Shown: positions 18,232 to 49,542 of the stretch, piece by piece
Position numbering within the stretch: the first letter of the stretch is position 1
How the letters are laid out: every line of letters starts with the position of its first letter
Assembly: GCA_018653485.1 (NCBI GenBank)
Contig: JABHZE010000006.1
Location: 262,937 to 326,936 of the forward strand
DNA: 64,000 nt
Direction: 5' to 3'
Source: an archaeon
GTDB lineage: Archaea; Nanobdellota; Nanobdellia; Pacearchaeales; GW2011-AR1
The notes under the pieces: generated by a model
The model's input: only the letters and a program-made list of their open reading frames with translations
What the model was told of the DNA's origin: nothing
The model's database searches: none
Translations under genes and position numbers: made by a program

Positions 18232-18232
18232 T

Positions 18233-36917: not shown

Positions 36918-37169
36918 ATGAAAGGATCACCTAAAGTGTTTAGATTGCAAATAAATGTTCGTCCTTCATTACTTGAAGTTGTGGATGAAGTTGTTTCTGA
37001 AACAGGGGGTGCAACTAGAGCAGAATTTGTAAGAGATGCTATGGATTTATTAATTAATCATGTTAGAAGAACAAAAGAAGGTTATAAGTGTGTTTATGAA
37101 AAAGAAGATAATCCTGAAGAGAGGATTGAAGTTGTTCTTCCAGGTTATTCTCATTTAAACAGGGAGTAG
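36918..37169 (+). CDS. ribbon-helix-helix (CopG/Arc-like) DNA-binding protein
   Basis: FRLQINVRPSLLEVVDEVVSETGGATRAEFVRDAMDLLINHV shows a beta-strand then two helices typical of RHH regulators. First gene of the signalling island. Confidence 0.55.
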   Translation: MKGSPKVFRLQINVRPSLLEVVDEVVSETGGATRAEFVRDAMDLLINHVRRTKEGYKCVYEKEDNPEERIEVVLPGYSHLNRE

Positions 37170-37170
37170 T

Positions 37171-37204
37171 TTAGTTTGGAAACCTTAGAAAAGGTTTAAA
37201 AAAT
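37171..37204 (+). promoter_or_regulatory. repeated promoter/operator box, copy 1
   Basis: ttagtttggaaaccttagaaaaggtttaaaaaat. The first 21 nt are identical to 37458-37478. It contains the inverted repeat aaacctt-agaa-aaggttt and a gtttaaaaa TATA-like element 22-31 nt upstream of the ATG at 37224. Confidence 0.55.
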
Positions 37205-37223
37205 ATTAATTCTTAGATTAAAT

Positions 37224-37418
37224 ATGGAAAAGAAATCAAATACAAAAGGAAATCAAACAAGAGGGAAGATTATGGTTTTTGTTGGGTTTATTATGATTTT
37301 ATTTAATGCATTAAATTATATCTTGGCTTGGGAGAGGGATTTAGTAGTTCTGGGGATTCTTGGTTTGGTTTTTGTTGGGGTTGGTTTAAGGATGGCTCGA
37401 GGAAAGAGTAAGTTTTAA
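37224..37418 (+). CDS. small 2-TM membrane protein
   Basis: 64-aa ORF with helices IMVFVGFIMILFNALNYILA and VVLGILGLVFVGVGL. Confidence 0.45.
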   Translation: MEKKSNTKGNQTRGKIMVFVGFIMILFNALNYILAWERDLVVLGILGLVFVGVGLRMARGKSKF

Positions 37419-37457
37419 GAGGGTTTTTTATGAGTGTATTTGTTTTTTAGTTTAATA

Positions 37458-37488
37458 TTAGTTTGGAAACCTTAGAAATGTTTAAAAA
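37458..37488 (+). promoter_or_regulatory. repeated promoter/operator box, copy 2
   Basis: ttagtttggaaaccttagaaatgtttaaaaa lies upstream of the receiver gene at 37531. Its agaaatgtttaaaaa core recurs at 49341-49355. Confidence 0.55.
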
Positions 37489-37530
37489 TGAAAGATATCT
37501 TATAATTTTATAATTATAAGGATTAAAAAA

Positions 37531-37884
37531 ATGGCAAAGAAAAAAGTTTTAATTGTTGATGATGATAAAAATGATTTAGAAACTATGAAAATGGTTCTTG
37601 AGAAAGATGGTTGTCAGGTAATTAGTGTTGAAAATGGTGCTGATGCTTTGGATGAACTAGAGGATGATGGTTATGATTTGATAATAATTGATATAAAAAT
37701 GCCTACATTATCTGGTTATGATTTGTTAAGATTAATGAGACAGAGGGTTAATCATAAAATAAAAATGATTTATGTTTCAATTGTTCCTGAACAAGAAGTT
37801 GATATGAATGATATTGAGGGCTTTATTCAAAAGCCGTTTTCTCCTGAAGAGTTTTTGAAAAAAGTTAAGGAAATTATTGGTTAG
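37531..37884 (+). CDS. stand-alone response-regulator receiver (CheY-like)
   Basis: VLIVDDDKND (acidic pocket), DLIIIDIKMPTLSG (phospho-acceptor Asp) and FIQKPF (conserved Lys). No output domain. Confidence 0.9.
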   Translation: MAKKKVLIVDDDKNDLETMKMVLEKDGCQVISVENGADALDELEDDGYDLIIIDIKMPTLSGYDLLRLMRQRVNHKIKMIYVSIVPEQEVDMNDIEGFIQKPFSPEEFLKKVKEIIG

Positions 37885-37980
37885 GAGAATTATATTTTAT
37901 GGGGGAGATTGGGAGAGTTTTATTTTTGGGAGAGTTTTATGAAAGAGAGAATTTAAATATACTTGATTATTTGTTTTATT

Positions 37981-38403
37981 ATGAATTTAATACCTCAATT
38001 AAAAAAAGAGCATGTAGAAATTATGCATTCGTTTGAATCAATTAAAGAAGGAGTTTCTAGTGGTAAATCAGGTGATGCTGATTTGATTGGTGAATTAAGA
38101 GAGTTAAAAAGAATTTTAGTTGCTCATTTAGATTTGGAAGATAAAATGTTGTATCCTGCTCTGTTGAATTCAGATGATAAAAAAGCAAAGGATTTAGGGA
38201 AAAAGTTTTCTGAAGAAATGTTAGGGATTTCAAAAGTGGCTTTGGCTTTTTTTGGAAAATATATGAGTGAAAGTATTTCTGATTTAATGAAGAGTTCTGA
38301 ATTTAGAAAAGAATTAGATGATGTTATTAAGGCTGTTACAAAAAGAGTTGATGCAGAGGAGAATATTCTTTATTTAGCATATGAGGAATGTTGTGAGAAG
38401 TGA
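37981..38403 (+). CDS. hemerythrin HHE cation-binding domain protein
   Basis: LKKEHVEIMHSFE...LKRILVAHLDLEDKMLYPAL... shows the H/E spacing typical of HHE-type hemerythrin-like domains. ATG at 37981 is preferred to the TTG at 37963. Confidence 0.65.
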   Translation: MNLIPQLKKEHVEIMHSFESIKEGVSSGKSGDADLIGELRELKRILVAHLDLEDKMLYPALLNSDDKKAKDLGKKFSEEMLGISKVALAFFGKYMSESISDLMKSSEFRKELDDVIKAVTKRVDAEENILYLAYEECCEK

Positions 38404-38504
38404 TTGTTGAGGGATTATTTGAGATAATAAATTGAATGATAATTTGTTGTGAATAAATTTATAAATGGTAAATGATTAAGGTTTGTATAAAAAGGTGAAA
38501 TATA

Positions 38505-38858
38505 ATGAGTAAAACAATTATGGTTGTGGATGATGAAGGAGATATTAGAGAGACTGTTAAGACTGTTTTAGAAAAAGAAGGTTATTCTGTTATAACTGCT
38601 ATAAGTGGAGATGATGCTTTGAAAAAATGGACTAAGCAGAAACCTGATTTAATTCTTATGGATATTATGATGCCTGGAACTCCTGTTAAGGATATTATTC
38701 CTAAGATGACTGGAACTAAGGTTGCTTATCTTTCTGTTGTTAGAACTTCTGAGGCTGAAAAAGAGGATTTAATGAAGAGTAAGAATATTGTGGATTTTAT
38801 ACAGAAGCCTTTTGATATAAAAGAATTGGTTAAAAAAGTTAAAAAATTGGTGGGTTAA
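38505..38858 (+). CDS. stand-alone response-regulator receiver (CheY-like)
   Basis: IMVVDDEGD, DLILMDIMMPG and FIQKPF. No output domain. The stop is 1 nt before the next start. Confidence 0.9.
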   Translation: MSKTIMVVDDEGDIRETVKTVLEKEGYSVITAISGDDALKKWTKQKPDLILMDIMMPGTPVKDIIPKMTGTKVAYLSVVRTSEAEKEDLMKSKNIVDFIQKPFDIKELVKKVKKLVG

Positions 38859-38859
38859 G

Positions 38860-39462
38860 ATGATAGATATGAAATCATCGCTTTCTTCAAATCAAATATT
38901 ACTTTTAGTTATGCCTAGTGCAGAATATAATGAGGTTCTTGTTGATGCAATGAAACAATTGTCAGGGAATATTTGCTATGTTACTTCAAATAAAACTTTT
39001 GATTCTTTAAAAGAAACTTTTAAAAAAAGTAAGGTGAATATTGATAATGTAGTTTTTATTGATTCTATTTCAAAGACTTTGAAGAAAACTCCTGACCAGG
39101 CAGATAGTGTTTATTATGTTTCTTCTCCTGGAGCATTGACTGAATTGTCTTTAGTTATTAATAAATTTTTAAGGCATGAATTTGATTATTTGATTTTTGA
39201 TTCTGTTACTAATCTTGCTGTATATCAAAAAAAGAATATGACTTCTAAGTTTATTTCTAGTTTGGCTGATAAAATTAAGAAGACTAAAACAAAAGCTATT
39301 TTTTATGCTTTGGATAGTGTTGAGCAAGCTTGGGTAATTGATCATGCTGGAATGGTTGTGGATAAGGTGATTAAGAGTGGTGGGGTGGATGGTGTTAAGG
39401 GGGAAGGGAAAGTTATTAAGAAGAGACTAAGTAAAAAAAAGAAAGAGGAGAAGGAGGTGTAA
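38860..39462 (+). CDS. KaiC/RecA-fold-like protein lacking a Walker A P-loop (paralog of 48703-49221)
   Basis: By eye it aligns with the KaiC domain of 47059-48690. QILLLVMPSAEYNEV occupies the P-loop position, GNICYVTSNK matches KKCLYMSFEE, and a Walker-B-like YLIFDSVTNL matches FIALDSLTAI. No GxxxxGK[ST] anywhere. Confidence 0.6.
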   Translation: MIDMKSSLSSNQILLLVMPSAEYNEVLVDAMKQLSGNICYVTSNKTFDSLKETFKKSKVNIDNVVFIDSISKTLKKTPDQADSVYYVSSPGALTELSLVINKFLRHEFDYLIFDSVTNLAVYQKKNMTSKFISSLADKIKKTKTKAIFYALDSVEQAWVIDHAGMVVDKVIKSGGVDGVKGEGKVIKKRLSKKKKEEKEV

Positions 39463-39463
39463 A

Positions 39464-39811
39464 ATGGCAGTAGGTCCAATGACTTTTGAAGGAGATTTGT
39501 TATTGATGGTAGCTATTGTTTTAGGATTAATTGCAACAGTTATAACTTTTTTAAATAGTCGGAAATTAAAAGGAGATGTTTTTGAAAAACCTTTTGTTTA
39601 TCTTTCAGTAGGTATTTTTTTAGCAACTTTTTCTTTAATCGCTGTAACTTTTTTTCAAGGAGTTTTTAGTGAATTAACTGTTGGTTTAATTCATGATATT
39701 AGTTTTATTCTGGGGTTAGGTTTAATGTTTTTAGCCTCTATACAGATTACAAAATTTTTAAAAGGATTAGGAAGTTTTGAACAAAAGTTACCTAAGAAGA
39801 TTAAGAAATAA
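39464..39811 (+). CDS. small 3-TM membrane protein, island family member 1
   Basis: 115 aa. TM1 is followed by FLNSRKLKGDVFEK, then two more TMs and a Lys tail. Same length and layout as 43723-44070. The start is 1 nt after the previous stop, with aaggaggt upstream. Confidence 0.55.
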   Translation: MAVGPMTFEGDLLLMVAIVLGLIATVITFLNSRKLKGDVFEKPFVYLSVGIFLATFSLIAVTFFQGVFSELTVGLIHDISFILGLGLMFLASIQITKFLKGLGSFEQKLPKKIKK

Positions 39812-39834
39812 TTTTGTTAGGGATTTTATTTTTT

Positions 39835-39945: not shown

Positions 39946-40323
39946 ATGAAATTTGAAATGTTTTTTGCGTTTAGTATGTTTTTGTTAGGGGTAGGAGGGT
40001 TTTTCTTAGCTAGTTCTGTTTTGACAATGACTGGATTGTCGATAGCAGAGGTTGATGGGGGTGGTTCTTCGTCATCATTATTGTTGTTTATAGGTATAGG
40101 AGTAATTATTGCAGGTATTTTTGGAGTTATGATTGCAAAGAAATTTTATAAACATGATGGAGTGGATAAAAAAAGTATTAAGGGTAAGAAAGTTGGTGGT
40201 AAGGGTGGGAGAAAGGATAATAAGGTTGATAAGAAAAAGGATGAGAAGAAGGATGAGAAGAAAAAAAAGATGAAGGATAAAAAGAAGGATGATGTGAATA
40301 GTGGTAAGAAAGATAAGAAATAA
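39946..40323 (+). CDS. 2-TM membrane protein with long poly-Lys/Asp tail
   Basis: 125 aa with two hydrophobic helices, then KGKKVGGKGGRKDNKVDKKKDEKKDEKKKKMKDKKKDD. Confidence 0.5.
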   Translation: MKFEMFFAFSMFLLGVGGFFLASSVLTMTGLSIAEVDGGGSSSSLLLFIGIGVIIAGIFGVMIAKKFYKHDGVDKKSIKGKKVGGKGGRKDNKVDKKKDEKKDEKKKKMKDKKKDDVNSGKKDKK

Positions 40324-40413
40324 GGAAGCGAGAATATAAAAAGGTTTTTTTCTAATTAGATTATATAATAAATCTGTTTATTTAATAATGGATTTATATA
40401 ATAAAAAGGTTAA

Positions 40414-43400
40414 TTGAAAAAGAGGTTAATTGAAAAAGTGGTAAAACAATTGGGATTAAAGAAATTTATATTTGTAAGTGTGTTTTTGAGTTTGTTTTTA
40501 ATAAATGTTAATTTAGTATTTGCTCAAGAATCTTTGAATAAAGATTTTTTATCTCAAAAAGTATTAACTGAACTTAATTTTATTGAAGATGATTTAATAT
40601 TTTTAAAGGAGTTGCCTGATTTTAATGCTTTTATTAATGGAGATTTATCTCGTAAAGAGCATTTACAGGATACTTTTTTTAGTTTTTCAAAAAATAAACA
40701 GATTTATTATCAAGTAAGATATATTGATGAGAGTGGAAAGGAAATTATTAGGGTAGATAATATTGAAGGAGAGACTGAGATTATCTCTGAAGATAATCTT
40801 CAGAATAAAAAAGGAAGATATTATTTTGATGATGCTTTTCTTTTAGATGATGGAGATATTTTTGTTTCACCTTTGGATTTAAATATTGAACAAGGTAAAT
40901 TAGAAAATAGGGGGAGTGAAGGAAACCCTGTTTATGTTCCTGTTATAAGATATGCTACTCCTGTTTTTGATTCAGAAAAGAAAAAAGTAGGGATAATTAT
41001 TCTTAATGTTTATGCAGATTATATTTTGGATATTTTTAAGAAAAATGGTGCAGGGTTGTCTGAAGATAGGGGATATCTTGTAAATAAGGAGGGTTATTTT
41101 TTATTTCATTCTGATTCTTCAAAAGAATTTGGTTTTATGTTTGAGAATGATATTACTTTAAGAAATGAATTTGGAGGAGAGTTTAGTCGAGTTTTTGATA
41201 GTGATGAGGGTGAATTTAATTTTAATGGAAAAACTTATGATTATATTAAAATTTTTCCTTCTGATTTGGAAATAATTTCAAGTAGTGGTTCTCCTAAGAG
41301 TTATGCCCCTAGTCTATCTAAGGTTCAGGGTAAAGATTATTTTTGGATTTTAATTGTTGAATCTCCTATTGTTAAGGGTGTTGTTGATTTCATGGCTCCT
41401 GTTTTTTTAGGTATTTATATTTTTTTAGGTATTCTTATTTTTTTAGGGATTTATTTTATTTTCTTTAAGAAAAAGAAAGAAAAAGAAAAAGAGAAAGAAA
41501 AAGATATTAGTGGCTTTTTCTTTAGTAAATTAAATAGGAAGATTATTTTAGGATTTTTAATTGTTGCATTATTGTTTGGAGTTATTGCGGGAGCAGGTAG
41601 TTTTTATTTGGAAAAAGCAGCTAAATCTGATTATATTAATGCTATTAATGAGATTGAAGCAGATTTTAATGATTTTAGGGAAGGAGATATAAGGACTTTA
41701 TCGGTAGGTTTGGAAATTGCTGTTCAGGATAAGGATTTGAAGGAAGTTTATTTAGAAAAGGATAGGGATAAACTTTATAATTATGGGCAAAATTTATTCA
41801 ATGAATTAAAGGATAAGTATGCTGTTACTCATTTTTATTTTATTGAACCTGATGGGAATTGTTTTGTTAGGTTGCATAATAAGGATAAGTTTAATGATGA
41901 AATTAAAAGGGCTACTTTTTTAAAGTCTAAAGAGACAAAAGATATTGGAGCTGGAATTGAATTAGGAAAAACTGCGTTTGCATTAAGAGTTGTTAAGCCT
42001 TATTATAATGATAATGAATTAATTGGTTATATGGAATTAGGTGAAGAAATAGATCATTTTTTAGAAGAGATGAAGAAAGGTAAAAATAATGAATTTTCAA
42101 TTATTATTGATAAGGAGTTTATAGATGAAGAAAATTGGGCTTCTGTTAGGGAGGTTAAAGGATTAGAGAATAATTGGGATAAGTTAGAGAATCATGTTGC
42201 TATTGAATCTACTATTGAAAATAATGTGCATTGTTTTAATTCTGATAATGTTGTAAAGGTTTTAGATGGAGAAAGGGTTTTTGGGACTTTTGATTCTGAA
42301 AAAGGAGATTTTGTATGTGGTGGTTTTCCTTTAATTGATGCTTCTGGAAATGAAGTTGGAGCTATGTTTGCATTGATTGATTCTTCTAAGAAGATTGGTT
42401 TTATAACTGCTATAAAATATGGTTTATTGTTTATGGTTGTTCTTTTTATTTTGGCAATTATTATTCTTAGTTTTTTTATTAAATTAAAAATTATAAATCC
42501 TATTGCTAAATTGAATAATGCAACTTCTGAGATTCAAAAAAGAAATTTTAAAGCAAGGGTTGATATTAATACAGGAGATGAATTACAGGTTTTAGGAGAA
42601 TCTTTTAATAAAACTGCAAAAGTTTTGCAACATATGGATGAAGAACATAAGCAATTGGAAAAAGCTAAGACTGAATTTTTGAGTATTACTTCGCATGAAT
42701 TAAGAAGTCCGATGACTCCAATGCAAGCTCAGTTGCAAATGTTACTTGGAGAGTATTATGGAAAATTAAATCCTAAACAAAAAAATTCATTAGATATTGT
42801 TGCAAGAAATACGAAAAGATTGGATAATATTATTGTTGATTTTTTGGAGATTTCTCGTATAGAGGCTGCGAGATTAAAGTTTAGATTTGTTAAAAAAGAT
42901 TTGACTGGTTCTATTAAAAGGTTAATGAAAGAGATGGTTGGTTTTATGCCTGAGAAGAAAGTTAAGTTATATAGTAAGATTGGTAAATTGCCTGTGATTG
43001 AAGTTGATCCAGATAGAGTTATGCAGGTTTTGAGAAATTTGATTAATAATGCTATTAAGTTTTCTCCTGAAGGAAAGAAAGTTGTTGTTTCTGCAGGATT
43101 AAAAGGAAATATGATTGAGTTTTCTGTTAAAGATGAAGGTATTGGTATTAAGGCAGAAGATCAGAAGAGAATTTTTGAACCATTTTTTCAAGCAGAACAG
43201 ACTATGTATAGGGAGCATCAAGGGACTGGATTAGGATTAGCAATTATTAGAGGAATTGTTGAGTCTCAAGAAGGGAATGTTTGGTTAGAGTCTGAAGAGG
43301 GTAAGGGAACAACTTTCTTTTTTACTATTCCTTTGAAACCTGTTAGGAATGTTAAGGCAATTAAATTATTGTTTTCTGAATCTAAAAATATTGAAAAAGA

Positions 43401-43722: not shown

Positions 43723-44070
43723 ATGGTTAATATAATAACAATAAATTGGATAATTGGAGGAGTTGCAGGAATTTTAATGTTCTATGCTTCTTTTATTACA
43801 TTTATGGCTGCAAAAAAAATGACAGGAGAATTAAAGAAATCTATTTTATTATTACTTGGCGCTTTATTATTTTATTTATTTATGGGATTTGGAATAGGAA
43901 TAATGGCTGTTAAAGATATTCATTATAGTGAGAGAGTTTGGTTGATTATTTCAACTTTTTCTTTAATAGGGGGAATTTTATTTGTAGTCGGTGCTAGAAA
44001 ATTGTTTAAGGTTTTGTTAAATGTTTCTGAAAATGATAAAAAGATAAATAAAAAGGAGGTTAAAAAATGA
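43723..44070 (+). CDS. small 3-TM membrane protein, island family member 2
   Basis: 115 aa. The start is immediately adjacent to the HK stop. TM1 is followed by FMAAKKMTGELKKS, then two more TMs and a Lys tail. Confidence 0.55.
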   Translation: MVNIITINWIIGGVAGILMFYASFITFMAAKKMTGELKKSILLLLGALLFYLFMGFGIGIMAVKDIHYSERVWLIISTFSLIGGILFVVGARKLFKVLLNVSENDKKINKKEVKK

Positions 44071-44492
44071 AGAAAAATATTTTGGTGTTAGTAATGTTAG
44101 GATTAATGTTTGCTATGCCTTTTATTAGTGCTGCTACAGAACATAGTGATAATAGTATTGGAATTGCTTCTCACTGGATATCTATGGTATTAATTGTTGT
44201 TGTAATTGTTTTTGCTTTTATGGCTGCGGGAATGTTTGCTGAAGGTTTAGGAAAGGCAATGAAATTAATTGGAGTCGGAATGGCTTTTCTTGGTATAAAT
44301 AGTGTTATGGAAGAATTTGCCCATATGGAGTTTCTTATTATTCCAGAAGGAGTTTTACACTCTTTGACATATCATGGTTTAGTGGCTGTTGCTTATATTT
44401 TCCTTGCATATGGATTTTATAGGGTTTACAAAGTAGCTAAAGGTGTTTCAGGAAATTCTGTTGGTAAATCTGTTCAAAAGGGGGCTAAGTAA
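44067..44492 (+). CDS. small membrane protein (signal peptide + 3 TM), island family member 3
   Basis: ATGA overlap with the previous gene. FMAAGMFAEGLGKAMKL mirrors the post-TM1 motif of 43723-44070. Confidence 0.55.
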   Translation: MKKNILVLVMLGLMFAMPFISAATEHSDNSIGIASHWISMVLIVVVIVFAFMAAGMFAEGLGKAMKLIGVGMAFLGINSVMEEFAHMEFLIIPEGVLHSLTYHGLVAVAYIFLAYGFYRVYKVAKGVSGNSVGKSVQKGAK

Positions 44493-44508
44493 TTAATTAC
44501 TAAATAAA

Positions 44509-44685
44509 ATGAAAGAGAAAATTGTAACAATTGGAACTTTGCTAGAGAAGGGTTTAATTAAAGAAAGTACTAAAATTAGAATTAGTATTGAAAATCTAAA
44601 AGAGATTGATTTGATTAAACCTCTTGATAAGAAAAAAGTTGTTAAGATAACTGAGCTTGATGAAATGGGGTTGATAAAAAAATAA
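44509..44685 (+). CDS. candidate 58-aa protein with SHOCT-like G-L-I-K motifs
   Basis: Below the ORF-track cutoff. Encodes MKEKIVTIGTLLEKGLIKESTKIRISIENLKEIDLIKPLDKKKVVKITELDEMGLIKK. The same (E/K)KG(L/I)(I/L) motif occurs twice in the HK C-terminal extension. Confidence 0.35.
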   Translation: MKEKIVTIGTLLEKGLIKESTKIRISIENLKEIDLIKPLDKKKVVKITELDEMGLIKK

Positions 44686-44744: not shown

Positions 44745-46409
44745 ATGAAAATAGCATTTATCTTAATTATCTCATTTGTAATTGTAGCAGTACTTGGTAG
44801 TATTGGTGGAAGTTATTATTTTTATTTGGAATCTGGAGATTTATTAGAGCATCAGGTTATAAATCATTTAGATTCTGTTGCACAAGGAATGGAAAACTCT
44901 ATTAATGGTTTTTTAGAAGAGCAAATTGATAAGTTGAATATCGTTGCAACACATGGAGAACTTTCAGTTGAAGAATTAATTGAGATAAGGGATTTGCAGG
45001 ATGAATTTTATGAGGTTTTTGTTTTAGATTCTAAGGGGATTATTATTGCAAGTTCGGATGTTTCAAAAATTGGTTTAGATAGGGCTGAGGATGATTATTT
45101 TATTGGAGGAATAAAAGGAGATCATATTAAAACAGCTTATTTTTCAGATATAACTTTTATAGAATCAATTGCGGTTTCTACTCCTTATAATGGAGGAGTT
45201 TTAGTTGCAAGAATTGAATTAGAAGCATTTAATAAATTAATTTCGGATAGGACTGGATTAGGTGAAACAGGAGAGAGTTTATTAGGTTATAAGGGTGATG
45301 ATGGAGAAGCTGTTTTTTTTACTGAGTTGAAATTTGAGGTAGGTCCTGATGGACATGAAGCAGAACATGTAACCTTACCTATAGAGGAAGCATTAGATGG
45401 GAAGGAAGAAATATTTTTTGAATATGATTATCGTCATGTGCCTGTAATTGCTGCAACAAGATATATTGAGGATGTAGATATGGGGCTTGTTACTAAAATT
45501 GATGAAGCAGAGGCATTAGGTATTGCTAGGAATAGATTATTTAGAACTTCTTTGATTGTGATAATTATAATTACTTTGATTATTACTTTAGTTGGTTTTT
45601 TTGTTTCGCGTTTAATTTCAAAACCTATTAAGAAATTAACACAAGATGTTGACGAAATAACAAAAGGTAAATTAGATCTTCAATTAGGTAAGAGTAATCT
45701 TTTTGAAATTCAAGGATTAGTTAATTCATTGAATCGGATTTTAGCTTCATTAAAGCTGGCTATTTTGAAAACAGGTTCTGCAAAGGGATCGTTAGGTTTA
45801 GGGGAGGTTGTTAAGGCTAAACAAGAGGCTGAAGAGAAATATAAGATTCTTTATGAAACTTCACAGGATGCAATTATGATATTAGAGCCTCCTAAATGGA
45901 ATTTTACTGCGGGAAATCCTGCAACTGTTAAAATGTTTGGTGCTAAGGATGAGAAAGATTTTATTTCCTATGGTCCTGGAAAATTATCTCCTAAAAATCA
46001 GTTGAATGGGAAATTATCTTCTGAAGAAGCTAAGAAAATGATTGGTATTGCTATGAAAAAAGGAAGTTATTCTTTTTATTGGACTCATAAAAAAATTAAT
46101 GGTAAAAGTTTTTATGCAAGTGTTTTGTTAACTAAGATGAAATTAAATGGTAAAGATGTTTTACAAGCAACTGTTCGGGATTTATCAGGGAAGAAAGGAG
46201 AGGGGGAGAAACAAGTTCTTGCCAAGAAATCTGAAGGTAAGGTTGTTAATAAATTGGTTAAGAGTGTTAAGAAAGATATGGTTAGTGGAAATAAAAAAAA
46301 TAAAGAAGAGGTGAAGAAAAAAAATATTAAAAAGGAATTAGTTCCTCCAAGTCCTGTTTCTAAGTCTGTTATTAAAAAAAATGTTGATAAGGAAGAGGTG
46401 AAAAAATAA
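44745..46409 (+). CDS. membrane sensor: Cache-like domain + HAMP + PAS, no recognisable output domain
   Basis: 554 aa. Layout is TM, a ~250-aa extracytoplasmic domain, TM, HAMP (ISKPIKKLTQDVDEITKGKLDLQL...LVNSLNRILASLK), then PAS (YKILYETSQDAIMILEP...LQATVRDLSGKK). It ends in a Lys-rich tail with no HisKA, HATPase, GGDEF or MCP signalling domain. Confidence 0.8.
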   Translation: MKIAFILIISFVIVAVLGSIGGSYYFYLESGDLLEHQVINHLDSVAQGMENSINGFLEEQIDKLNIVATHGELSVEELIEIRDLQDEFYEVFVLDSKGIIIASSDVSKIGLDRAEDDYFIGGIKGDHIKTAYFSDITFIESIAVSTPYNGGVLVARIELEAFNKLISDRTGLGETGESLLGYKGDDGEAVFFTELKFEVGPDGHEAEHVTLPIEEALDGKEEIFFEYDYRHVPVIAATRYIEDVDMGLVTKIDEAEALGIARNRLFRTSLIVIIIITLIITLVGFFVSRLISKPIKKLTQDVDEITKGKLDLQLGKSNLFEIQGLVNSLNRILASLKLAILKTGSAKGSLGLGEVVKAKQEAEEKYKILYETSQDAIMILEPPKWNFTAGNPATVKMFGAKDEKDFISYGPGKLSPKNQLNGKLSSEEAKKMIGIAMKKGSYSFYWTHKKINGKSFYASVLLTKMKLNGKDVLQATVRDLSGKKGEGEKQVLAKKSEGKVVNKLVKSVKKDMVSGNKKNKEEVKKKNIKKELVPPSPVSKSVIKKNVDKEEVKK

Positions 46410-46810
46410 TGGTATTTATGGAATGGAGTGATGAATTAAGTGTCAAAGTTAAAGAAATTGATGAACAACATAAAGAGTTGATTGAGATTATCAATCAAGC
46501 TCATAAGATTAATATGGGAGAGGATAAGAAAAAAGGAAATGAGATTTTAAATAAATTAATTGAATTTACTCGAGTGCATTTTACTACTGAAGAAAAATAC
46601 TTTAAAAAATGTAAATATCCTAAGAGTGAAGAACATATTGTAGAACATGTTGAATTAATTGAAAAAGTTTTGAAATTTAAAAGAGATTATGAAATTGGGA
46701 AGTGTAATTGTGAAGAGTTTTTAGGGTTTCTTAAGGATTGGTTGGAAAATCATTTGAAAGTTATGGATATGAAGTATGTTGATAATTTTCAAAAATGTGG
46801 GTTGAAGTAA
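46409..46810 (+). CDS. bacteriohemerythrin-like protein
   Basis: MEWSDELSVKVKEIDEQHKELIEIIN...HFTTEEKYF...EEHIVEH...WLENHLKVMDMKY contains all the His/Glu/Asp di-iron ligand positions. Its ATG overlaps the upstream stop (TAATG). Confidence 0.85.
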   Translation: MVFMEWSDELSVKVKEIDEQHKELIEIINQAHKINMGEDKKKGNEILNKLIEFTRVHFTTEEKYFKKCKYPKSEEHIVEHVELIEKVLKFKRDYEIGKCNCEEFLGFLKDWLENHLKVMDMKYVDNFQKCGLK

Positions 46811-46895
46811 TGTTTTGATTTGGGTTTTTGATAAGACATGTTTGAGAAGGGAGTTAGTTAAAAAATAGGTTCGCTATGCTCACACTTATTTTATG

Positions 46896-46927
46896 GAAAA
46901 TTGAATGACTTTGTTAATTCAATTTTC
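46896..46927 (+). promoter_or_regulatory. perfect 11-bp inverted repeat between the hemerythrin and hemerythrin-KaiC genes
   Basis: gaaaattgaat-N10-attcaattttc. It could be a terminator hairpin or an operator. Confidence 0.4.
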
Positions 46928-47058
46928 TAATTCTTCTAATAAATCTATAAATTTTTTATTTAAGTTATAGAGAAAGAATTGTTATTATTGGGTAGAGCTG
47001 TATTTTGTTTTTTTGTGAGGCATAAGATAGATTTAAATAATATTTTTTTCTTATTTTA

Positions 47059-48690
47059 ATGGGTGATGATTATATGGTTAGAAAAAAGAAAGTGAAAAGA
47101 AAAAAGAGTGTAGAAAAGAAGAAGGATACTAAGAAGGAGAAGGCTGAGAAGAAGAAGGTTGAGGAGAAGGCTGAGAAGAAGGTTGAGAGGAAGGCTGAGA
47201 AGGAGAAAGTGGATAAGAGAAAAAAGAATGTGAAGAAAAAGAAGAATTCTAAGGAAAAGGTTGAGAGGGTTGGAAAAGTTGATGAAGTAAGAAAAGTTGA
47301 AAATAATTCTAAGAAAAAAGATTCTAAAGAAATAGTTAGTTGGAGTTCTGCATTAAGTGTTGGTGAGAAAACAATTGATAGTCAACATAAGAAATTGATT
47401 GGGCAGATTGAAGAGTTAGAAAAGAATTTGAAGGAAGATAATTCTCTGCCTGGAGTTAGGAAGTGTATTCATTTTTTAGATAGTTATGTTAAGGAACATT
47501 TTACCTATGAAGAAGCTTATATGAAAAAAAATAAATATTCGGGTTTAGAAGAACATAAGAGAATTCATAATGAATTTATTAAATTTTATGAGGAGTTTAA
47601 AAAAGAATTAACTCTAAAGCTGACTAAGGTTGTAGATGCAAAATCTTTTGCAAAAGAACATGTGAAAAAGGTTCACGAGTTTTTAGGTAATTGGATTATT
47701 GAACATATTAAAGGAGAGGATAAGAAATATTGTGAAGAGATTAACCCTAAAAAATGTGGTAAATTGGATAAAGAGGTTATTAAAAATAAAGATGTTGCTG
47801 AAAAGCCAATAAAAGAAAAGAAAAAAGGTAAAATAGATGTTTCTGAGATTGCTAAAGAAATTAAGGAAGAACAAATTAAAGAACAGAGAGAACCTGTTAG
47901 TGACTTGGCTAATGAGGGGAAGGATAAGAAAATAAAAAAAGGTTCTGGAAGATATGTTGTTACTGGTGTGCCTGGGTTTGATGATTTATTAGAACAAGGA
48001 ATTCCTAAAGGAAATGCTCTTTTAATTGCATGTGGTGCTGGAAGTGGAAAGACTATTTTTAGTTTGCAATCTCTTGTGCATCAGGCTAAAAAGGGTAAGA
48101 AATGTTTGTATATGAGTTTTGAAGAAAGAGAGAGTAGGTTGATTTCTCATATGGAAGATTTTGGATGGAATCCTAAAGAGTTAATTGAGAAAGGAAATTT
48201 AAAAATTATGAGGATAAATCCTTTTGATATTACGAGAAATGTTGATGCCTTATTGGCTAAACAAAAGGGAGAATTATTAATTGAGATAGACCCTGTGATT
48301 ATTCCTAAGGATTTTAAGCCTGATTTTATTGCTCTTGATAGTTTAACTGCTATTGCTAGTGCTTTTACTGGGAAAGAAGAAAATTATAGAATTTATATTG
48401 AACAATTATTTAGATTTTTTGAAAAAATTGGGGCTACAAGTTTTTTGATTACAGAGACTGAACAAATACCTAAGATATTTAGTAAGACTGGTGTTGAAGA
48501 GTTTTTAGCAGATGGTGTAATTGTGTTTTATAATTTAAAGCATGGAAATGTTAGAGAGAATGCTATTGAGATTTTGAAACTAAGAGGGGCTGCACATCAG
48601 AAAAAAATTGTTGCAATGCAGATTACTGGTAAGGGAATAATGGTTTATCCTGAACAGGAAGTTTTTTCAGAGATTTCTGAGAGTGGGTGA
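47059..48690 (+). CDS. Lys-rich repeat + bacteriohemerythrin domain + KaiC-like (RecA-superfamily) ATPase fusion protein
   Basis: 543 aa. About 90 aa of KKKVEEKAEKK-type repeats come first. Then hemerythrin (WSSALSVGEKTIDSQHKKLI...EHFTYEEAYM...EEHKRIHNEF...WIIEHIKGEDKKY). Then KaiC-like GVPGFDDLLEQGIPKGNALLIACGAGSGKT (Walker A), FIALDSLTAI (Walker B) and ILKLRGAAH. Confidence 0.85.
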   Translation: MGDDYMVRKKKVKRKKSVEKKKDTKKEKAEKKKVEEKAEKKVERKAEKEKVDKRKKNVKKKKNSKEKVERVGKVDEVRKVENNSKKKDSKEIVSWSSALSVGEKTIDSQHKKLIGQIEELEKNLKEDNSLPGVRKCIHFLDSYVKEHFTYEEAYMKKNKYSGLEEHKRIHNEFIKFYEEFKKELTLKLTKVVDAKSFAKEHVKKVHEFLGNWIIEHIKGEDKKYCEEINPKKCGKLDKEVIKNKDVAEKPIKEKKKGKIDVSEIAKEIKEEQIKEQREPVSDLANEGKDKKIKKGSGRYVVTGVPGFDDLLEQGIPKGNALLIACGAGSGKTIFSLQSLVHQAKKGKKCLYMSFEERESRLISHMEDFGWNPKELIEKGNLKIMRINPFDITRNVDALLAKQKGELLIEIDPVIIPKDFKPDFIALDSLTAIASAFTGKEENYRIYIEQLFRFFEKIGATSFLITETEQIPKIFSKTGVEEFLADGVIVFYNLKHGNVRENAIEILKLRGAAHQKKIVAMQITGKGIMVYPEQEVFSEISESG

Positions 48691-48702
48691 TAGGGGGTTA
48701 AA

Positions 48703-49221
48703 ATGAAACATAAACTTGTATTTTTATTAGGGCATGAGGGTTATCTTAAAGAAATAAGAGAAATTATTAAAAAAAAGGGAAGTAAGATTTGTTATATAAC
48801 TTTGAATAAGAGTTGTGAGTATTTGAATGGGAAATTAAATGTTAGTAATTTTGATGAGGATAAATTTTATTTTATTGATGGTGTTTCTCCTATAATTAAA
48901 AAGCCTGGAGATGTTGGAAATTGTGATTTTGTCAAAATGTCTGATGGTTTTACTAAATTAATCGGTTATGTTAAAAAGGGTTTGAAAAATGGGGCAAATG
49001 TAGTTGTTTTAGATTCTGTATCTAATGTTTTGACATATCATTCTTCTACAAAAGGAACTTGTTCTTTTATAGATAGACTTTCAAAACTTGTTGAAAAACA
49101 TAATGCTACTTTAGTTGTTTTTTGTAATAAGAATGATGAAGAGAGAATTGCTAATGGGGTTTGCATTTCTAATTTTAAGGTTTATAAGAAACCTTTTGAG
49201 TTATTGGGGCATAGGGAATAA
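48703..49221 (+). CDS. KaiC/RecA-fold-like protein lacking a Walker A P-loop (paralog of 38860-39462)
   Basis: LVFLLGHEGYLKE sits at the P-loop position, KICYITLNK follows, and NVVVLDSVSNVL is Walker-B-like. Starts 12 nt after the hemerythrin-KaiC gene, with a gggggt SD-like motif. Confidence 0.6.
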   Translation: MKHKLVFLLGHEGYLKEIREIIKKKGSKICYITLNKSCEYLNGKLNVSNFDEDKFYFIDGVSPIIKKPGDVGNCDFVKMSDGFTKLIGYVKKGLKNGANVVVLDSVSNVLTYHSSTKGTCSFIDRLSKLVEKHNATLVVFCNKNDEERIANGVCISNFKVYKKPFELLGHRE

Positions 49222-49295
49222 GGGTTTTGTTGAGTAATGTGGAGTAGATTTTAGGATTGTTTTTTATTAATTATTATCTAGAATATAGTGATATC

Positions 49296-49355
49296 TTTCT
49301 GTATTTCTATGGAAGTATAAAGAAGTATATAGAATTCTACAGAAATGTTTAAAAA
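49296..49355 (+). promoter_or_regulatory. operator-like repeats plus shared promoter core upstream of the RHH gene at 49396
   Basis: Inverted repeat tttctgta (49296-49303) / tacagaaa (49338-49345) brackets two gaagtata direct repeats spaced 10 nt apart (49312-49319, 49322-49329). agaaatgtttaaaaa (49341-49355) is identical to the core of 37458-37488. Confidence 0.45.
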
Positions 49356-49395
49356 GGAAAATTACTTAGAATAATTGTAGCTTGGAGTTTAAAAA

Positions 49396-49542
49396 ATGCA
49401 AAAAAAGGTGACCTTAAGTATCGACGATGAAGTCTATGGAAATTTTCAAAAATTTTGTGAAGAGAATGATGTAATGCTTTCTAAGAGAGTTGAAAGATTG
49501 ATTAAAAAACATTTAGAGGAGGGTGAGAAAAATGATAAATGA
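49396..49542 (+). CDS. ribbon-helix-helix (CopG-like) protein, 48 aa
   Basis: Below the ORF-track cutoff. MQKKVTLSIDDEVYGNFQKFCEENDVMLSKRVERLIKKHLEEGEKNDK has the classic RHH beta-strand (VTLSID) plus two helices. It overlaps the next ORF's start. Confidence 0.5.
   Translation: MQKKVTLSIDDEVYGNFQKFCEENDVMLSKRVERLIKKHLEEGEKNDK

What the first reader, a model, noticed from the sequence alone, without database searches (positions are those of the whole stretch)
36918..49542. Densely packed signalling island: hemerythrins, KaiC-like modules, orphan receivers, 3-TM proteins and giant sensors
About 12.6 kb of same-strand genes, many with overlapping or abutting stop/start codons. They encode 2 stand-alone REC domains, 3 hemerythrin-domain proteins, 1 active-looking KaiC-like ATPase and 2 P-loop-less KaiC/RecA-like paralogs. 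They also encode 3 paralogous 3-TM proteins, a 1102-aa histidine kinase and an output-less Cache-HAMP-PAS sensor, and RHH genes sit at both ends. No classical DNA-binding response regulator, CheA/MCP or Hpt is present, so the wiring is not a textbook two-component or chemotaxis system. KaiC-like ATPases have been proposed from comparative genomics to act as signalling hubs in archaea. This locus would join that idea to di-iron (O2/NO/redox) sensing and His-Asp phosphotransfer, which is surprising in an otherwise reduced genome.
Basis: partly seen in the sequence, partly recalled or inferred. Interest (0 to 1): 0.8.

Follow-up and report, generated by a model that had tools for sequence, protein, structure and literature searches.

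The report
Conserved archaeal KaiC–hemerythrin–two-component signalling cluster
A tiny-genome (DPANN) archaeon from oxygen-poor seawater carries a gene cluster, conserved across dozens of related species, that links an ordinary histidine-kinase/receiver signalling pair to a KaiC-type ATPase fused to an iron-based oxygen/redox sensor, through ATPase-dead KaiC look-alikes; it is a clear new variant of the proposed archaeal "KaiC signalling hub".

Summary
HMM, motif and structure checks confirm 2 stand-alone receivers and a 1102-aa double-Cache histidine kinase with all catalytic boxes. They also confirm an output-less Cache-HAMP-PAS sensor, 2 canonical bacteriohemerythrins (one fused to an active-looking single-domain KaiC ATPase) and 2 KaiC/RecA-fold paralogues without a P-loop. 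Corrections:
- The third "hemerythrin" is a divergent HHE-type protein with an incomplete metal-ligand set.
- Paralogy of the 3-TM proteins is weak.
- The left-end RHH and its neighbour are not conserved elsewhere.
- The kinase carries an extra, unrecognised, conserved C-terminal helical module.

The juxtaposition is not chance. In 48 species-level DPANN genomes the KaiC orthologue is flanked by iKaiC (34), REC (28), HK (27), Cache/PAS (22) and hemerythrin (22, of which 10 fused). These lie almost always upstream on the same strand. REC and iKaiC genes abut, duplicate together and co-diverge.

My best reading is that kinase→REC~P and hemerythrin inputs converge on a KaiC ATPase through inactive KaiC adaptor subunits. 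The output is unknown. The idea of KaiC hubs and REC–iKaiC fusions is published. The hemerythrin–KaiC fusion and this DPANN-wide split module were absent from the literature I could search, and the key Makarova 2017 paper was not readable. Verdict: new variant of a known kind, interest about 0.6.

The parts
37531..37884 (+). C: stand-alone receiver (REC1), 117 aa. Has D10/D11, acceptor D54, S83 and K101.
   Evidence: Pfam Response_reg 78.3 bits. Motifs. Orthologues in 36 loci.
37981..38403 (+). D: divergent HHE-type hemerythrin-like protein. It is 140 aa from the ATG at 37981; the listed ORF starts at TTG 37963. The metal-ligand set is incomplete.
   Evidence: Pfam Hemerythrin 38.6 bits. Only H11, H49, E53, E126 and E127 are invariant in the family (A4). 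The same type is fused to KaiC in P0058 and P0112.
38505..38858 (+). E: stand-alone receiver (REC2), 117 aa, first gene of the E-F-G unit. Has D9/D10, acceptor D53, S77 and K101.
   Evidence: Pfam 73.1 bits. Motifs. Abuts F with a 1-nt gap. The REC→iKaiC pair recurs in 23 places, plus 6 in reverse order.
38860..39462 (+). F: inactive KaiC-like protein (iKaiC, DUF7090), 200 aa. RecA-like core. It has no P-loop, the catalytic Glu pair is replaced by an invariant N44-K45, and there is no Arg-finger segment. The Walker-B-like LIFDS motif is kept.
   Evidence: Pfam DUF7090 35.3 bits. hhalign to the KaiC domain gives 74% probability, E 2.7e-5, in register. AF2 model pLDDT 87.5. By Foldseek TM-score the best match is PH0284 (TMq 0.65), alongside FlaH, KaiC, RadA and RecA; CobU chains have the lowest E-values.
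39464..39811 (+). G: small 3-TM protein, 115 aa, translationally coupled to F. Lineage-specific.
   Evidence: Hydropathy. An orthologue was found only in L015.
39946..40323 (+). H: 2-TM protein with a Lys-rich tail, 125 aa. Lineage-specific.
40414..43722 (+). I: sensor histidine kinase, 1102 aa (or 1094 aa from GTG 40438). Order of elements: TM, Cache-like, TM hairpin, TM, dCache_3, TM, HAMP, HisKA (H761), HATPase_c (N, G1, F and G2 boxes), C-terminal module.
   Evidence: Pfam. Motifs. TM segments. Orthologues in 33 loci.
43384..43587 (+). Conserved C-terminal helical module of the kinase, about 70 aa, with an 'LGPxG' motif. No family assignment. Candidate adaptor or output module.
   Evidence: Conserved in orthologous kinases. 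Occurs in tandem in L055 and L072, stand-alone in L058, and (weakly, E 5e-4) on a double-domain KaiC in L085. AF2 predicts 4 helices at pLDDT about 90. No significant PDB fold match. Only weak wHTH-type Pfam hints.
43723..44070 (+). J: small 3-TM protein, 115 aa, abutting the kinase stop codon.
   Evidence: Weak orthologues in L017 and L055.
44067..44492 (+). K: membrane or secreted protein, 141 aa, overlapping J by 4 nt.
   Evidence: orthologues in L015 and L038.
44745..46409 (+). L: output-less membrane sensor, 554 aa. Order of elements: TM, Cache, TM, HAMP, PAS, Lys-rich tail.
   Evidence: Pfam dCache_1 39 bits, HAMP 22.5 and PAS weak; no kinase domain. NCBIfam sensory_box E 1.5e-4. Orthologues in 25 loci.
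46409..46810 (+). M: stand-alone bacteriohemerythrin, 133 aa, whose start overlaps the stop of L. Ligands H21, H57/E61, H76/H80 and H115/D120.
   Evidence: NF033749 124.7 bits against a cut-off of 84. Motifs.
47059..48690 (+). N: hemerythrin–KaiC fusion, 543 aa. Elements: Lys/Glu-rich N-terminus; bacteriohemerythrin domain (aa about 93-228: H110, H147/E151, H166/H170, H216/D221); Lys-rich linker; single KaiC domain (aa about 298-536: P-loop 324-ACGAGSGKT, E355/E356, D427, R509).
   Evidence: Pfam KaiC 171.8 bits and Hemerythrin 49.4 bits. NCBIfam. Best PDB matches are the KaiC CI domain, PH0284, PH0186 and DcrH-Hr. Family alignment A1.
48703..49221 (+). O: second inactive KaiC-like protein, 172 aa, 12 nt downstream of N. 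Paralogue of F.
   Evidence: F against O gives E 1e-14. Pfam KaiC 26.4 bits against GA 26.6. No Walker A. An iKaiC lies within 250 bp of 24 of 84 KaiC orthologues.
49396..49542 (+). P: 48-aa RHH-like protein, recurrently found just downstream of the KaiC unit. Candidate transcriptional output, with low confidence.
   Evidence: Pfam DUF6364 24.9 bits, below GA. Homologues in 13 loci. In the 48-locus set it occurs in 10 loci and always downstream of KaiC.
49532..50185 (+). Q: 5-TM protein with a Lys/Glu-rich tail, overlapping P. Loosely associated.
   Evidence: homologues in L052, L061 and L072, not adjacent to P there.
36918..37418 (+). A (83-aa RHH-like) and B (64-aa 2-TM): lineage-specific neighbours, not part of the conserved module.
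   Evidence: No homologues in L007-L089. A has only sub-threshold NikR-N hits.

Best explanation
The island is a chromosomal, vertically conserved signalling supra-operon of DPANN archaea of the Pacearchaeota/Woesearchaeota type. This organism occurs in the Saanich Inlet oxygen-minimum zone. The island is built around one highly conserved, catalytically competent, single-domain KaiC-family ATPase (N).

Proposed flow:
1. Two membrane sensors read extracellular ligands. One is a histidine kinase with two extracytoplasmic Cache-type domains (I). The other is a kinase-less Cache-HAMP-PAS protein (L).
2. Canonical bacteriohemerythrin domains, one free (M) and one fused to KaiC (N), read O2, redox or iron state.
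3. The kinase autophosphorylates on H761 and phosphorylates the two stand-alone receivers (C, E).
4. Receiver E acts on its translationally coupled partner F. F is an ATPase-dead KaiC paralogue that has lost the P-loop, the catalytic glutamates and the arginine-finger segment.
5. F and its paralogue O (encoded next to KaiC) bind or co-assemble with the KaiC ring. This changes its ATPase or autokinase state, so KaiC integrates the phosphorelay and the hemerythrin signal.
6. The output is unresolved. Candidates are the small RHH protein P, the kinase's conserved C-terminal helical module, or direct protein-protein control.

Shown: domain identities, catalytic motifs, the fold of F, conserved polar synteny, the alternation between fused and adjacent hemerythrin and KaiC, and the adjacency, co-duplication and co-divergence of REC and iKaiC.

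Inferred: every physical interaction, the direction of signal flow, the ligand of the hemerythrins, and the output.
For: - Domain and motif evidence.
- F is a RecA/KaiC-fold protein without a P-loop.
- The Hr-KaiC fusion is a large family. There are 749 homologues at E<1e-10, and most of the top 120 clusters carry PF01814+PF06745. The KaiC domain is 70-80% identical across DPANN phyla.
- Two unrelated hemerythrin types are fused to the same KaiC. In close relatives (L015, L021, L022, L028) the hemerythrin is a separate gene directly upstream of KaiC. This is a Rosetta-stone relation.
- Neighbourhood in 48 species-level loci: iKaiC in 34, REC in 28, HK in 27, Cache/PAS in 22, any hemerythrin in 22.
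- Upstream against downstream gene counts: REC 48/5, HK 25/4, Cache-PAS 27/2, Hr 18/1.
- 29 of 69 iKaiC genes abut a stand-alone REC, and 24 of 84 KaiC genes have an iKaiC within 250 bp.
- REC and adjacent iKaiC co-diverge. Mantel test: 0 of 2000 permutations reached the observed value. Partial r given KaiC distance is 0.37. Nearest-neighbour congruence is 12 of 30 against 1.05 expected.
- REC-iKaiC fusions exist in other archaea (PMC5847659).
- KaiC orthologues carry swappable N-termini: Hr, HHE, 2x wHTH, or unknown.
- Flanking housekeeping genes (PPDK, ScpA, HisRS) are shared with the distant locus L007, and GC content is uniform.
- The exact protein was recovered from Saanich Inlet samples at 150 and 200 m.
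Against: - There is no direct evidence for any interaction. No multimer modelling could be run.
- About 30% of KaiC-orthologue loci lack iKaiC and about 40% lack REC or HK within 10 kb, so KaiC does not depend on them everywhere.
- The very high conservation of the KaiC core might reflect a housekeeping job rather than signalling.
- Mirror-tree correlations can arise from shared ancestry alone.
- hhalign support for F-KaiC homology is moderate (74%), and O is just below Pfam's cut-off.
- No output domain is identified.
- The first Gly of Walker A is Cys in this strain (it is Gly in the 13 other aligned family members, A1).
- The background frequency of REC, HK and iKaiC genes elsewhere in these genomes was not measured. 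The upstream/downstream asymmetry served as an internal control.
Confidence: 0.6

Rival explanations
1. Same components, reverse flow, as in the cyanobacterial KaiC→SasA→RpaA route. The hemerythrin-KaiC ATPase would be the primary O2/redox (or time/energy) sensor. Its state would gate the histidine kinase, which then phosphorylates the receivers. The REC-iKaiC pairs would be the output arm rather than an input to KaiC.
For: - KaiC carries its own sensor domain.
- The kinase has a conserved extra C-terminal module. It also occurs stand-alone, and a weaker match (E 5e-4) sits on a double-domain KaiC paralogue in L085. It could dock the two proteins.
- Established knowledge: SasA binds KaiC and relays to RpaA.
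Against: - The kinase has two large extracytoplasmic sensor domains of its own, so it is not merely a relay.
- The C-terminal module has no detectable similarity to KaiB/SasA-type domains or to anything in the PDB.
- iKaiC proteins have no recognisable effector function.
Confidence: 0.2
2. The conserved KaiC is mainly a housekeeping RecA-superfamily ATPase, for example a RadA-paralogue-type DNA-repair or stress factor like Sulfolobus SSO2452/aRadC. The hemerythrin would tune it to oxidative stress. The two-component genes would be merely frequent neighbours with a separate function.
For: - The KaiC core is 70-80% identical across phyla.
- PDB relatives include SSO2452, PH0284 and RadA/RecA.
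- Some loci have KaiC without any REC, HK or iKaiC nearby.
Against: - There is strongly polar, same-strand synteny with REC, HK, Cache-PAS and iKaiC in most loci.
- N-terminal fusions are sensor or wHTH domains, not DNA-repair modules.
- iKaiC genes sit next to either REC or KaiC.
- No repair genes are conserved in the neighbourhood.
Confidence: 0.1
3. The cluster is cargo of an integrated mobile element or a defence island, delimited by the tyrosine recombinase next to tRNA-Glu. On this view it is a recently acquired mosaic, not a functional unit.
For: A Phage_integrase-family gene (50516-51562, minus strand) lies beside tRNA-Glu (51620-51692, minus strand), just right of the island. RHH proteins and small TM proteins are common on mobile elements.
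Against: - No repeat of the tRNA was found anywhere in the window, and no long direct repeats flank the island.
- GC content is flat at 0.28-0.30.
- The module is conserved in order across DPANN phyla, and housekeeping neighbours are shared with at least one distant locus, L007.
- There are no PADLOC hits apart from one spurious weak match.
Confidence: 0.04

Closest known systems
Archaeal KaiC-like ATPase 'signal transduction hubs' (Makarova, Galperin & Koonin 2017, mBio 8:e01959-17). Known here only through citations in PMC5847659, because the paper itself was not readable.
   Same: A single-domain KaiC-family ATPase is embedded in a neighbourhood of sensor domains, receivers and inactivated KaiC paralogues (iKaiC). 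It is predicted to integrate signals.
   Different: This one occurs in DPANN genomes. Its input is a hemerythrin, fused or adjacent. Its iKaiC is a stand-alone protein of about 175-200 aa (DUF7090/DUF7504 type) paired with a stand-alone REC gene. I could not check whether the 2017 paper lists hemerythrin among KaiC-linked domains. No paper in the searchable library combines hemerythrin, KaiC and archaea.
REC–iKaiC response regulators: iKaiC-REC of Methanosarcinaceae, REC-DUF835, MEDS-REC (Galperin et al. 2018, PMC5847659).
   Same: A receiver domain is functionally tied to an ATPase-dead KaiC-like domain.
   Different: Here the two are separate, translationally coupled genes (1-nt gap) rather than one polypeptide. 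The iKaiC belongs to a different Pfam family (DUF7090). The pair sits in one cluster with an active KaiC.
Cyanobacterial KaiABC clock with the SasA/CikA–RpaA two-component output.
   Same: A KaiC-family ATPase is coupled to a histidine kinase and a receiver. The KaiC domain aligns best with the CI domain of KaiC (E 2e-52 to a KaiC chain).
   Different: N has a single RecA-like domain, not the CI+CII duplication. No KaiA or KaiB genes are present. No DNA-binding RpaA-type regulator is present. There is no evidence of oscillation.
DcrH-Hr and other hemerythrin-domain signalling proteins: the Desulfovibrio chemoreceptor DcrH, and bacteriohemerythrin fused to GGDEF or kinase modules.
   Same: A bacteriohemerythrin domain with the full H-HxxxE-HxxxH-HxxxxD ligand set is attached to a signalling protein. 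DcrH-Hr is the best solved match for the hemerythrin part (E 7e-11).
   Different: The attached module is a KaiC-type ATPase rather than an MCP, GGDEF or kinase domain.
ArlH (FlaH), CirA-D and GvpD: KaiC-like regulators of the archaellum, motility/shape and gas vesicles.
   Same: All are single-domain archaeal KaiC-family proteins acting as regulators. FlaH is among the top fold and sequence matches. One relative (L008) lies beside a che operon.
   Different: No archaellum, pilus or gas-vesicle genes are in the window. The ArlH equivalog score is far below its cut-off (41 against 215 bits).

Membership tests
KaiC-family (PF06745) RecA-superfamily ATPase – protein N | HMM score above the curated cut-off | tested here: met
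   171.8 bits against 26.6. Best PDB hits are KaiC chains, PH0284 and PH0186.
KaiC-family (PF06745) RecA-superfamily ATPase – protein N | Walker A Lys/Thr, catalytic Glu pair, Walker B Asp and Arg finger | tested here: met
   324-ACGAGSGKT-332, E355/E356, D427 and R509. The first Walker-A Gly is Cys in this strain only.
Bona fide circadian KaiC (KaiABC oscillator) | Tandem CI+CII domains, with KaiB (and KaiA) partner genes | tested here: not met
   N has one KaiC domain. NCBIfam circ_KaiC gives 108 bits against 546. No KaiA or KaiB is among the island ORFs.
Bona fide circadian KaiC (KaiABC oscillator) | Autophosphorylation cycle or ATPase-driven timing | not testable with these tools
   Needs biochemistry.
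Bacteriohemerythrin – M and the N-terminal domain of N | HMM above the curated cut-off | tested here: met
   NF033749 gives 124.7 bits (M) and 94.5 bits (N) against a cut-off of 84.
Bacteriohemerythrin – M and the N-terminal domain of N | Seven di-iron ligands H, HxxxE, HxxxH, HxxxxD | tested here: met
   M has H21, H57/E61, H76/H80 and H115/D120. N has H110, H147/E151, H166/H170 and H216/D221.
Bacteriohemerythrin – M and the N-terminal domain of N | Reversible O2 (or NO/redox) binding | not testable with these tools
   Needs spectroscopy.
Hemerythrin HHE cation-binding domain – D | HMM above cut-off | tested here: met
   38.6 bits against 25.3.
Hemerythrin HHE cation-binding domain – D | Complete His/carboxylate di-metal ligand set | tested here: not met
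   Across 6 family members only H11, H49, E53, E126 and E127 are invariant. The helix-3 His and the helix-4 His are absent.
Inactivated KaiC (iKaiC) – F and O | RecA/KaiC-like fold | tested here: met
   The AF2 model of F has pLDDT 87.5. Foldseek hits at E about 1e-5 are PH0284 (TMq 0.65, rmsd 3.2), FlaH, KaiC, RadA and RecA, alongside CobU chains, which have the lowest E-values. O was not modelled; it is a paralogue of F (E 1e-14).
Inactivated KaiC (iKaiC) – F and O | Sequence homology to the KaiC family | tested here: inconclusive
   hhalign gives 74% probability and E 2.7e-5, in register. In the profile-against-PDB search the top hit is KaiC at E 2.5e-4. Pfam KaiC is below GA for both proteins (18.6 and 26.4 bits).
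Inactivated KaiC (iKaiC) – F and O | Loss of the nucleotide-binding and catalytic motifs | tested here: met
   No Walker A in F or O. Shown for F and its family: the catalytic EE position is occupied by an invariant N44-K45, and the protein ends before the Arg-finger segment.
Two-component system | Kinase with H, N, G1, F and G2 boxes | tested here: met
   SHELRSP (H761), NLINNAIKF, DEGIG, FEPF and GTGLGL. HisKA 57.7 bits and HATPase_c 104.8 bits.
Two-component system | Receiver with the acidic pocket, acceptor Asp, Thr/Ser and Lys | tested here: met
   C has D10/D11, D54, S83 and K101. E has D9/D10, D53, S77 and K101.
Two-component system | Response regulator with a DNA-binding or enzymatic output domain (textbook form) | tested here: not met
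   Both receivers are 117-aa REC-only proteins.
Two-component system | Phosphotransfer between this kinase and these receivers | not testable with these tools
   Needs in vitro phosphotransfer profiling.
Chemotaxis (Che) pathway | CheA, CheW and MCP present | tested here: not met
   None are in the island. One distant relative (L008) has a che operon next to Hr-KaiC.
KaiC signalling hub (comparative-genomics concept) | Conserved neighbourhood of a KaiC-like ATPase with iKaiC and signal-transduction domains | tested here: met
   48 loci: iKaiC 34, REC 28, HK 27, Cache/PAS 22, Hr 22, with strong upstream polarity. Adjacency statistics.
Integrated mobile element | Integrase plus tRNA target with a flanking att repeat, and atypical composition | tested here: not met
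   Integrase and tRNA-Glu are present. There is no second copy of tRNA sequence and GC is uniform.
Anti-phage defence system | Match to known defence protein models | tested here: not met
   PADLOC gave no hits for 9 of 10 proteins, and one weak spurious Cas9-fragment hit to M.

The most novel reading that the evidence does not exclude
DPANN archaea possess their own widespread signalling architecture. In it, a phosphorylated stand-alone receiver recruits or releases ATPase-dead KaiC subunits, which co-assemble with a hemerythrin-gated KaiC ring. This would be a phosphorelay-to-ATPase switch that replaces the missing DNA-binding response regulators. It would couple O2/redox state and extracellular (possibly host-derived) cues to gene expression or cell-surface behaviour. 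The uncharacterised 'LGPxG' helical module on the kinase would serve as the docking element.
Probability: 0.25. Interest if true: 0.8.

Novelty: new variant of a known kind. Interest (0 to 1): 0.6.

Why it matters
Archaeal signal transduction is poorly understood, and the KaiC-hub idea rests almost entirely on comparative genomics. This cluster offers a compact and unusually complete test case. It has one active KaiC, two inactive paralogues, one kinase, two receivers and defined sensor domains. It is conserved across many DPANN lineages, so it supplies natural variants (fused against split hemerythrin; one or two REC-iKaiC pairs).

The proteins are small and soluble, so the predicted contacts (REC~P–iKaiC, iKaiC–KaiC, Hr–KaiC) can be tested by co-expression, even though the organisms are uncultured.

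It also suggests how symbiotic or episymbiotic archaea with very small genomes sense oxygen at an oxycline. A hemerythrin-controlled KaiC ATPase was not found in the literature I could search.

Tried and rejected
1. Genomic-island idea. I searched the window for copies of the 5' and 3' parts of tRNA-Glu, allowing up to 3 mismatches. Only the tRNA itself matched, plus an unrelated tRNA fragment at 39-58. No long direct repeats bound the island. Rejected.
2. Defence-system idea. PADLOC found nothing. Rejected.
3. The 31-nt repeat (37171 and 37458) as an RHH operator. Only two copies exist, and both end in a TATA-like TTTAAAAA upstream of genes B and C. I read it as a duplicated promoter and did not pursue it.
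4. Kinase C-terminal module. Pfam gave only weak, scattered winged-helix hits. The PDB profile search was insignificant. The third large homologue search returned a single protein. The AF2 core was confident, but Foldseek found no match at E<1. The fold and function stay unassigned.
5. Representative-library search. My 2-sequence profile included the HATPase_c tail of P0241, so the count at E≤1e-3 (37,175) is inflated by ordinary kinases. Only the roughly 120 best clusters, which cover the module, are meaningful.
6. Makarova et al. 2017 could not be read. Whether hemerythrin is listed there is unchecked.
7. Paralogy of the '3-TM' proteins. Only weak G–J similarity was found, and orthologues occur only in the nearest relatives. 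They are not treated as core parts.

Full report
**What is there.**

The window is archaeal. It encodes archaeal-type PheRS alpha and beta subunits, a YGR210-type Obg GTPase, an Elp3-like radical-SAM protein and Kae1. GC content is 28%, with a strong G-over-C excess on whichever strand is coding.

The exact Hr-KaiC protein occurs on contigs from Saanich Inlet oxygen-minimum-zone metagenomes (150 and 200 m) with identical synteny. The nearest named relatives are Pacearchaeota and Woesearchaeota MAGs.

Between 36918 and 50185 there are 17 same-strand ORFs. Upstream sequences suggest about ten transcription units: A | B | C | D | E-F-G | H | I-J-K | L-M | N-O | P-Q. First genes have a TATA-like box 27-30 nt before the ATG, which suggests leaderless mRNAs. 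Internal genes have a GGAGG-type Shine-Dalgarno sequence lying inside the 3' end of the preceding gene.

**Checking the assignments.**

- **Receivers.** Pfam and NCBIfam confirm both, and each has a complete phospho-acceptor pocket.
- **Kinase.** It has five TM segments, two extracytoplasmic Cache-type domains, HAMP, HisKA and HATPase_c, with all boxes present.
- **Cache-HAMP-PAS protein.** It has no kinase or other output domain.
- **Canonical bacteriohemerythrins.** There are two, both above NCBIfam's curated cut-off and both with all seven iron ligands. One is fused to a single KaiC domain through a Lys-rich linker. That KaiC domain has P-loop Lys/Thr, the Glu pair, the Walker B Asp and the Arg finger.
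- **P-loop-less proteins F and O.**
 - They are paralogues of each other (E 1e-14).
 - F matches DUF7090 above threshold.
 - Its family profile aligns in register with the KaiC domain (hhalign 74%, E 2.7e-5).
 - It picks KaiC, FlaH and SSO2452 as its three best matches in the PDB, though only the KaiC hit is below E 0.01.
 - A confident AF2 model (pLDDT 87.5) matches PH0284, FlaH, KaiC, RadA and RecA; CobU chains have the lowest Foldseek E-values.
 - F lacks the P-loop. It has an invariant Asn-Lys where the catalytic glutamates sit, and it ends before the Arg-finger segment. It is therefore an ATPase-dead KaiC-like subunit.

- **D.** It is a divergent HHE-type protein. Its family conserves only two His and three Glu, so di-iron binding is doubtful. 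The same type is nevertheless fused to KaiC in some relatives (P0058 and P0112).
- **3-TM proteins.** The '3 paralogous 3-TM proteins' reduce to a weak G–J resemblance. Orthologues of G, H, J and K exist only in the closest relatives.
- **A and B.** They have no homologues in any related locus. They are neighbours, not parts.

**Is the clustering meaningful?**

Yes. The Hr-KaiC protein has at least 749 homologues at E<1e-10. Most of the best 120 clusters carry both Pfam domains. The KaiC core is 70-80% identical even in relatives without a hemerythrin.

A scan of one genome per GTDB species returned 80 loci in Pacearchaeota, Woesearchaeota, Nanoarchaeota and Aenigmatarchaeota MAGs, plus a few bins labelled otherwise. 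I searched their ORFs with the window's proteins. Among the 48 loci with at least 5 kb upstream of the KaiC orthologue:

| Gene type | Loci with it (of 48) |
|---|---|
| iKaiC | 34 |
| REC | 28 |
| HK | 27 |
| Cache/PAS protein | 22 |
| Hemerythrin (10 fused to KaiC) | 22 |
| RHH48 | 10 |

The arrangement is polar, as these gene counts upstream and downstream of KaiC show:

| Gene type | Upstream | Downstream |
|---|---|---|
| REC | 48 | 5 |
| HK | 25 | 4 |
| Cache-PAS | 27 | 2 |
| Hr | 18 | 1 |
| RHH48 | 0 | 10 |

Of 69 iKaiC genes, 29 abut a stand-alone REC gene: 23 as REC→iKaiC, and 6 in the reverse order, as in the Aenigmatarchaeota loci inspected. In addition, 24 of 84 KaiC orthologues have an iKaiC within 250 bp.

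REC-iKaiC pairs occur twice in five loci: L012, L013, L032, L041 and L055. REC and adjacent iKaiC distances are correlated:
- Pearson r is 0.44, and in the Mantel test 0 of 2000 permutations reached it.
- The partial r controlling for KaiC distance is 0.37.
- Nearest-neighbour congruence is 12 of 30 against about 1 expected.

In L015, L021, L022 and L028 a stand-alone hemerythrin gene sits directly upstream of a KaiC that lacks the fused domain. Together with the fused forms, this is Rosetta-stone evidence that hemerythrin and KaiC work together.

Housekeeping neighbours (PPDK, ScpA, HisRS) are shared with a 59%-identical relative. The module is therefore an old chromosomal resident.

**How it probably works.**

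See the best explanation. In short, extracellular cues (through the Cache domains of I and L) and O2, redox or iron state (through M and the hemerythrin domain of N) converge on the KaiC ATPase. The phosphorelay arm reaches KaiC through REC~P acting on ATPase-dead KaiC subunits that bind or co-assemble with the active ring.

The domain facts, the synteny and the fusions are shown. The contacts, the direction of flow and the output are inferred.

N-termini of KaiC orthologues are swappable: bacteriohemerythrin, HHE type, two winged-helix domains in L058, or unassigned. That fits an integrator with modular inputs and outputs.

Candidate outputs are the RHH48 protein P and the kinase's C-terminal module. 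P was found in 13 loci and lay downstream of KaiC in all 10 loci of the 48-locus set that carry it.

**The kinase C-terminal module.**

Residues of about 991-1058 carry an 'LGPxG' motif. They are conserved in orthologous kinases and duplicated in tandem in L055 and L072. They are encoded as a stand-alone two-copy protein in L058. A weaker match (E 5e-4) sits at the C-terminus of a double-domain KaiC in L085.

AF2 predicts a four-helix core at pLDDT of about 90 from a 2-sequence alignment. Foldseek finds nothing significant. Pfam gives only weak, scattered winged-helix hits. About 120 clusters at 50% identity carry it after a HATPase_c domain (with the caveat noted under what was tried). It is a reasonable candidate for a docking or output element, but it is unassigned.

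**Comparison with what is known.**

The concept of KaiC-like ATPases as archaeal signalling hubs, and of inactivated KaiC domains, comes from Makarova et al. 2017. I could not read that paper. Galperin et al. 2018 list REC fused to iKaiC-type domains: iKaiC-REC, REC-DUF835 and MEDS-REC (PMC5847659). They report that 5 of the 8 DPANN phyla encode at least some two-component systems, and describe a predominance of REC-only regulators across the unfinished archaeal genomes generally.

The present module is the split-gene counterpart, combined with an active KaiC and hemerythrin input. No paper in the searchable library combines hemerythrin with KaiC in archaea, or hemerythrin with DPANN signalling.

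It is not a Kai clock: it has a single domain and no KaiA or KaiB. It is not a Che system, not ArlH, not a defence system and not a detectable mobile island.

**Verdict.**

Novelty: a new variant of a known kind. Interest is about 0.6. It is not categorically new, but it is a compact, widely conserved and experimentally tractable instance of an untested idea, and it includes a hemerythrin-KaiC fusion not found in the searchable literature and an unassigned kinase module.

Noticed in passing
window 50516-51562 (-) and 51620-51692 (-): A tyrosine recombinase (Phage_integrase family, 348 aa) lies directly beside tRNA-Glu(UUC) at the right edge of the island. No att-like repeat of the tRNA occurs in the window. 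The same arrangement is seen in all Saanich Inlet contigs. It could be XerA or a remnant integrase.
   Followed up: partly
window 52968-53042 (+): A tRNA-Ile with anticodon UAU (gene TAT). This would let AUA be read without agmatidine modification of a CAU tRNA.
   Followed up: no
whole window; e.g. 1-8000 and 22000-50000 against 8000-20000: Very strong GC skew (+0.4 to +0.6) wherever genes are on the + strand, and about 0 or negative where genes are on the - strand. This is a coding-strand G excess in a 28% GC genome, not a replication signal.
   Followed up: partly
window 37171-37201 and 37458-37488: A 31-nt element (TTAGTTTGGAAACCTTAGAAA.G.TTTAAAAA), 90% identical in two copies, lies upstream of genes B and C. 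It ends in a TATA-like box and contains a short palindrome (AAACCTT/AAGGTTT) in the first copy. It is probably a duplicated promoter, possibly with an operator.
   Followed up: partly
window 39440-39462, 44050-44070, 46390-46409, 43700-43722: Several proteins (F, I, J, L) end in similar Lys/Glu-Val tails (…KEV, …KKEVKK, …KEEVKK, …KKEVRK). In F, J and L the codons AAG GAG GT(T/G) encode the GGAGGT Shine-Dalgarno sequence of the next, translationally coupled gene, so these tails are shaped by the downstream ribosome-binding site. In I the corresponding stretch (AAGAAGTAAG) is only a weak match.
   Followed up: partly
window 43384-43587 (kinase aa ~991-1058); L055:3522-6767, L072:4154-6646, L058:116-574, L085:13779-15734: An unassigned helical module of about 70 aa with an 'LGPxG' motif follows the HATPase_c domain. 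It also occurs in tandem, as a stand-alone two-copy protein and (weak match, E 5e-4) on a double-domain KaiC. It has no significant Pfam or PDB match.
   Followed up: partly
L058:9224-10735: In a Saanich Inlet Woesearchaeota MAG the orthologous KaiC carries two N-terminal winged-helix (IclR/MarR-like) domains instead of hemerythrin. This hints that the family can act directly on DNA.
   Followed up: partly
L008:971-7623 and 10001-11569: In one relative, a complete che operon (CheW, 2x CheY, CheB, CheA, CheC, CheD) lies immediately upstream of a PAS protein and the Hr-KaiC gene. This suggests a link to taxis in some lineages.
   Followed up: no
L008:13009-18261, L009:11704-19242: Giant predicted surface proteins (1750 and 2512 aa; FG-GAP/Big/NPCBM-associated hints) follow the KaiC unit in two relatives. 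In L008 an RHH48-like ORF lies between them; in L009 there is only an uncharacterised 42-aa ORF. This is a possible regulated target and was not examined.
   Followed up: no
window 48028-48054 (N aa 324-332): The first glycine of the Walker A motif is cysteine in this strain (ACGAGSGKT). The 13 other aligned family members have GGAGSGKT.
   Followed up: no
window 44509-44685 (+): A 58-aa ORF between K and L is called as a gene on three of the six Saanich contigs inspected (L002, L003, L005; it is not called on L001), with no family hit. It falls below the 60-aa ORF listing used here.
   Followed up: no
window 40410-40455: A 16-nt tandem duplication (TTAATTGAAAAAG.GG) lies at the kinase start. 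The start codon is ambiguous between TTG 40414 (1102 aa) and GTG 40438 (1094 aa, as called on the metagenome contigs).
   Followed up: no
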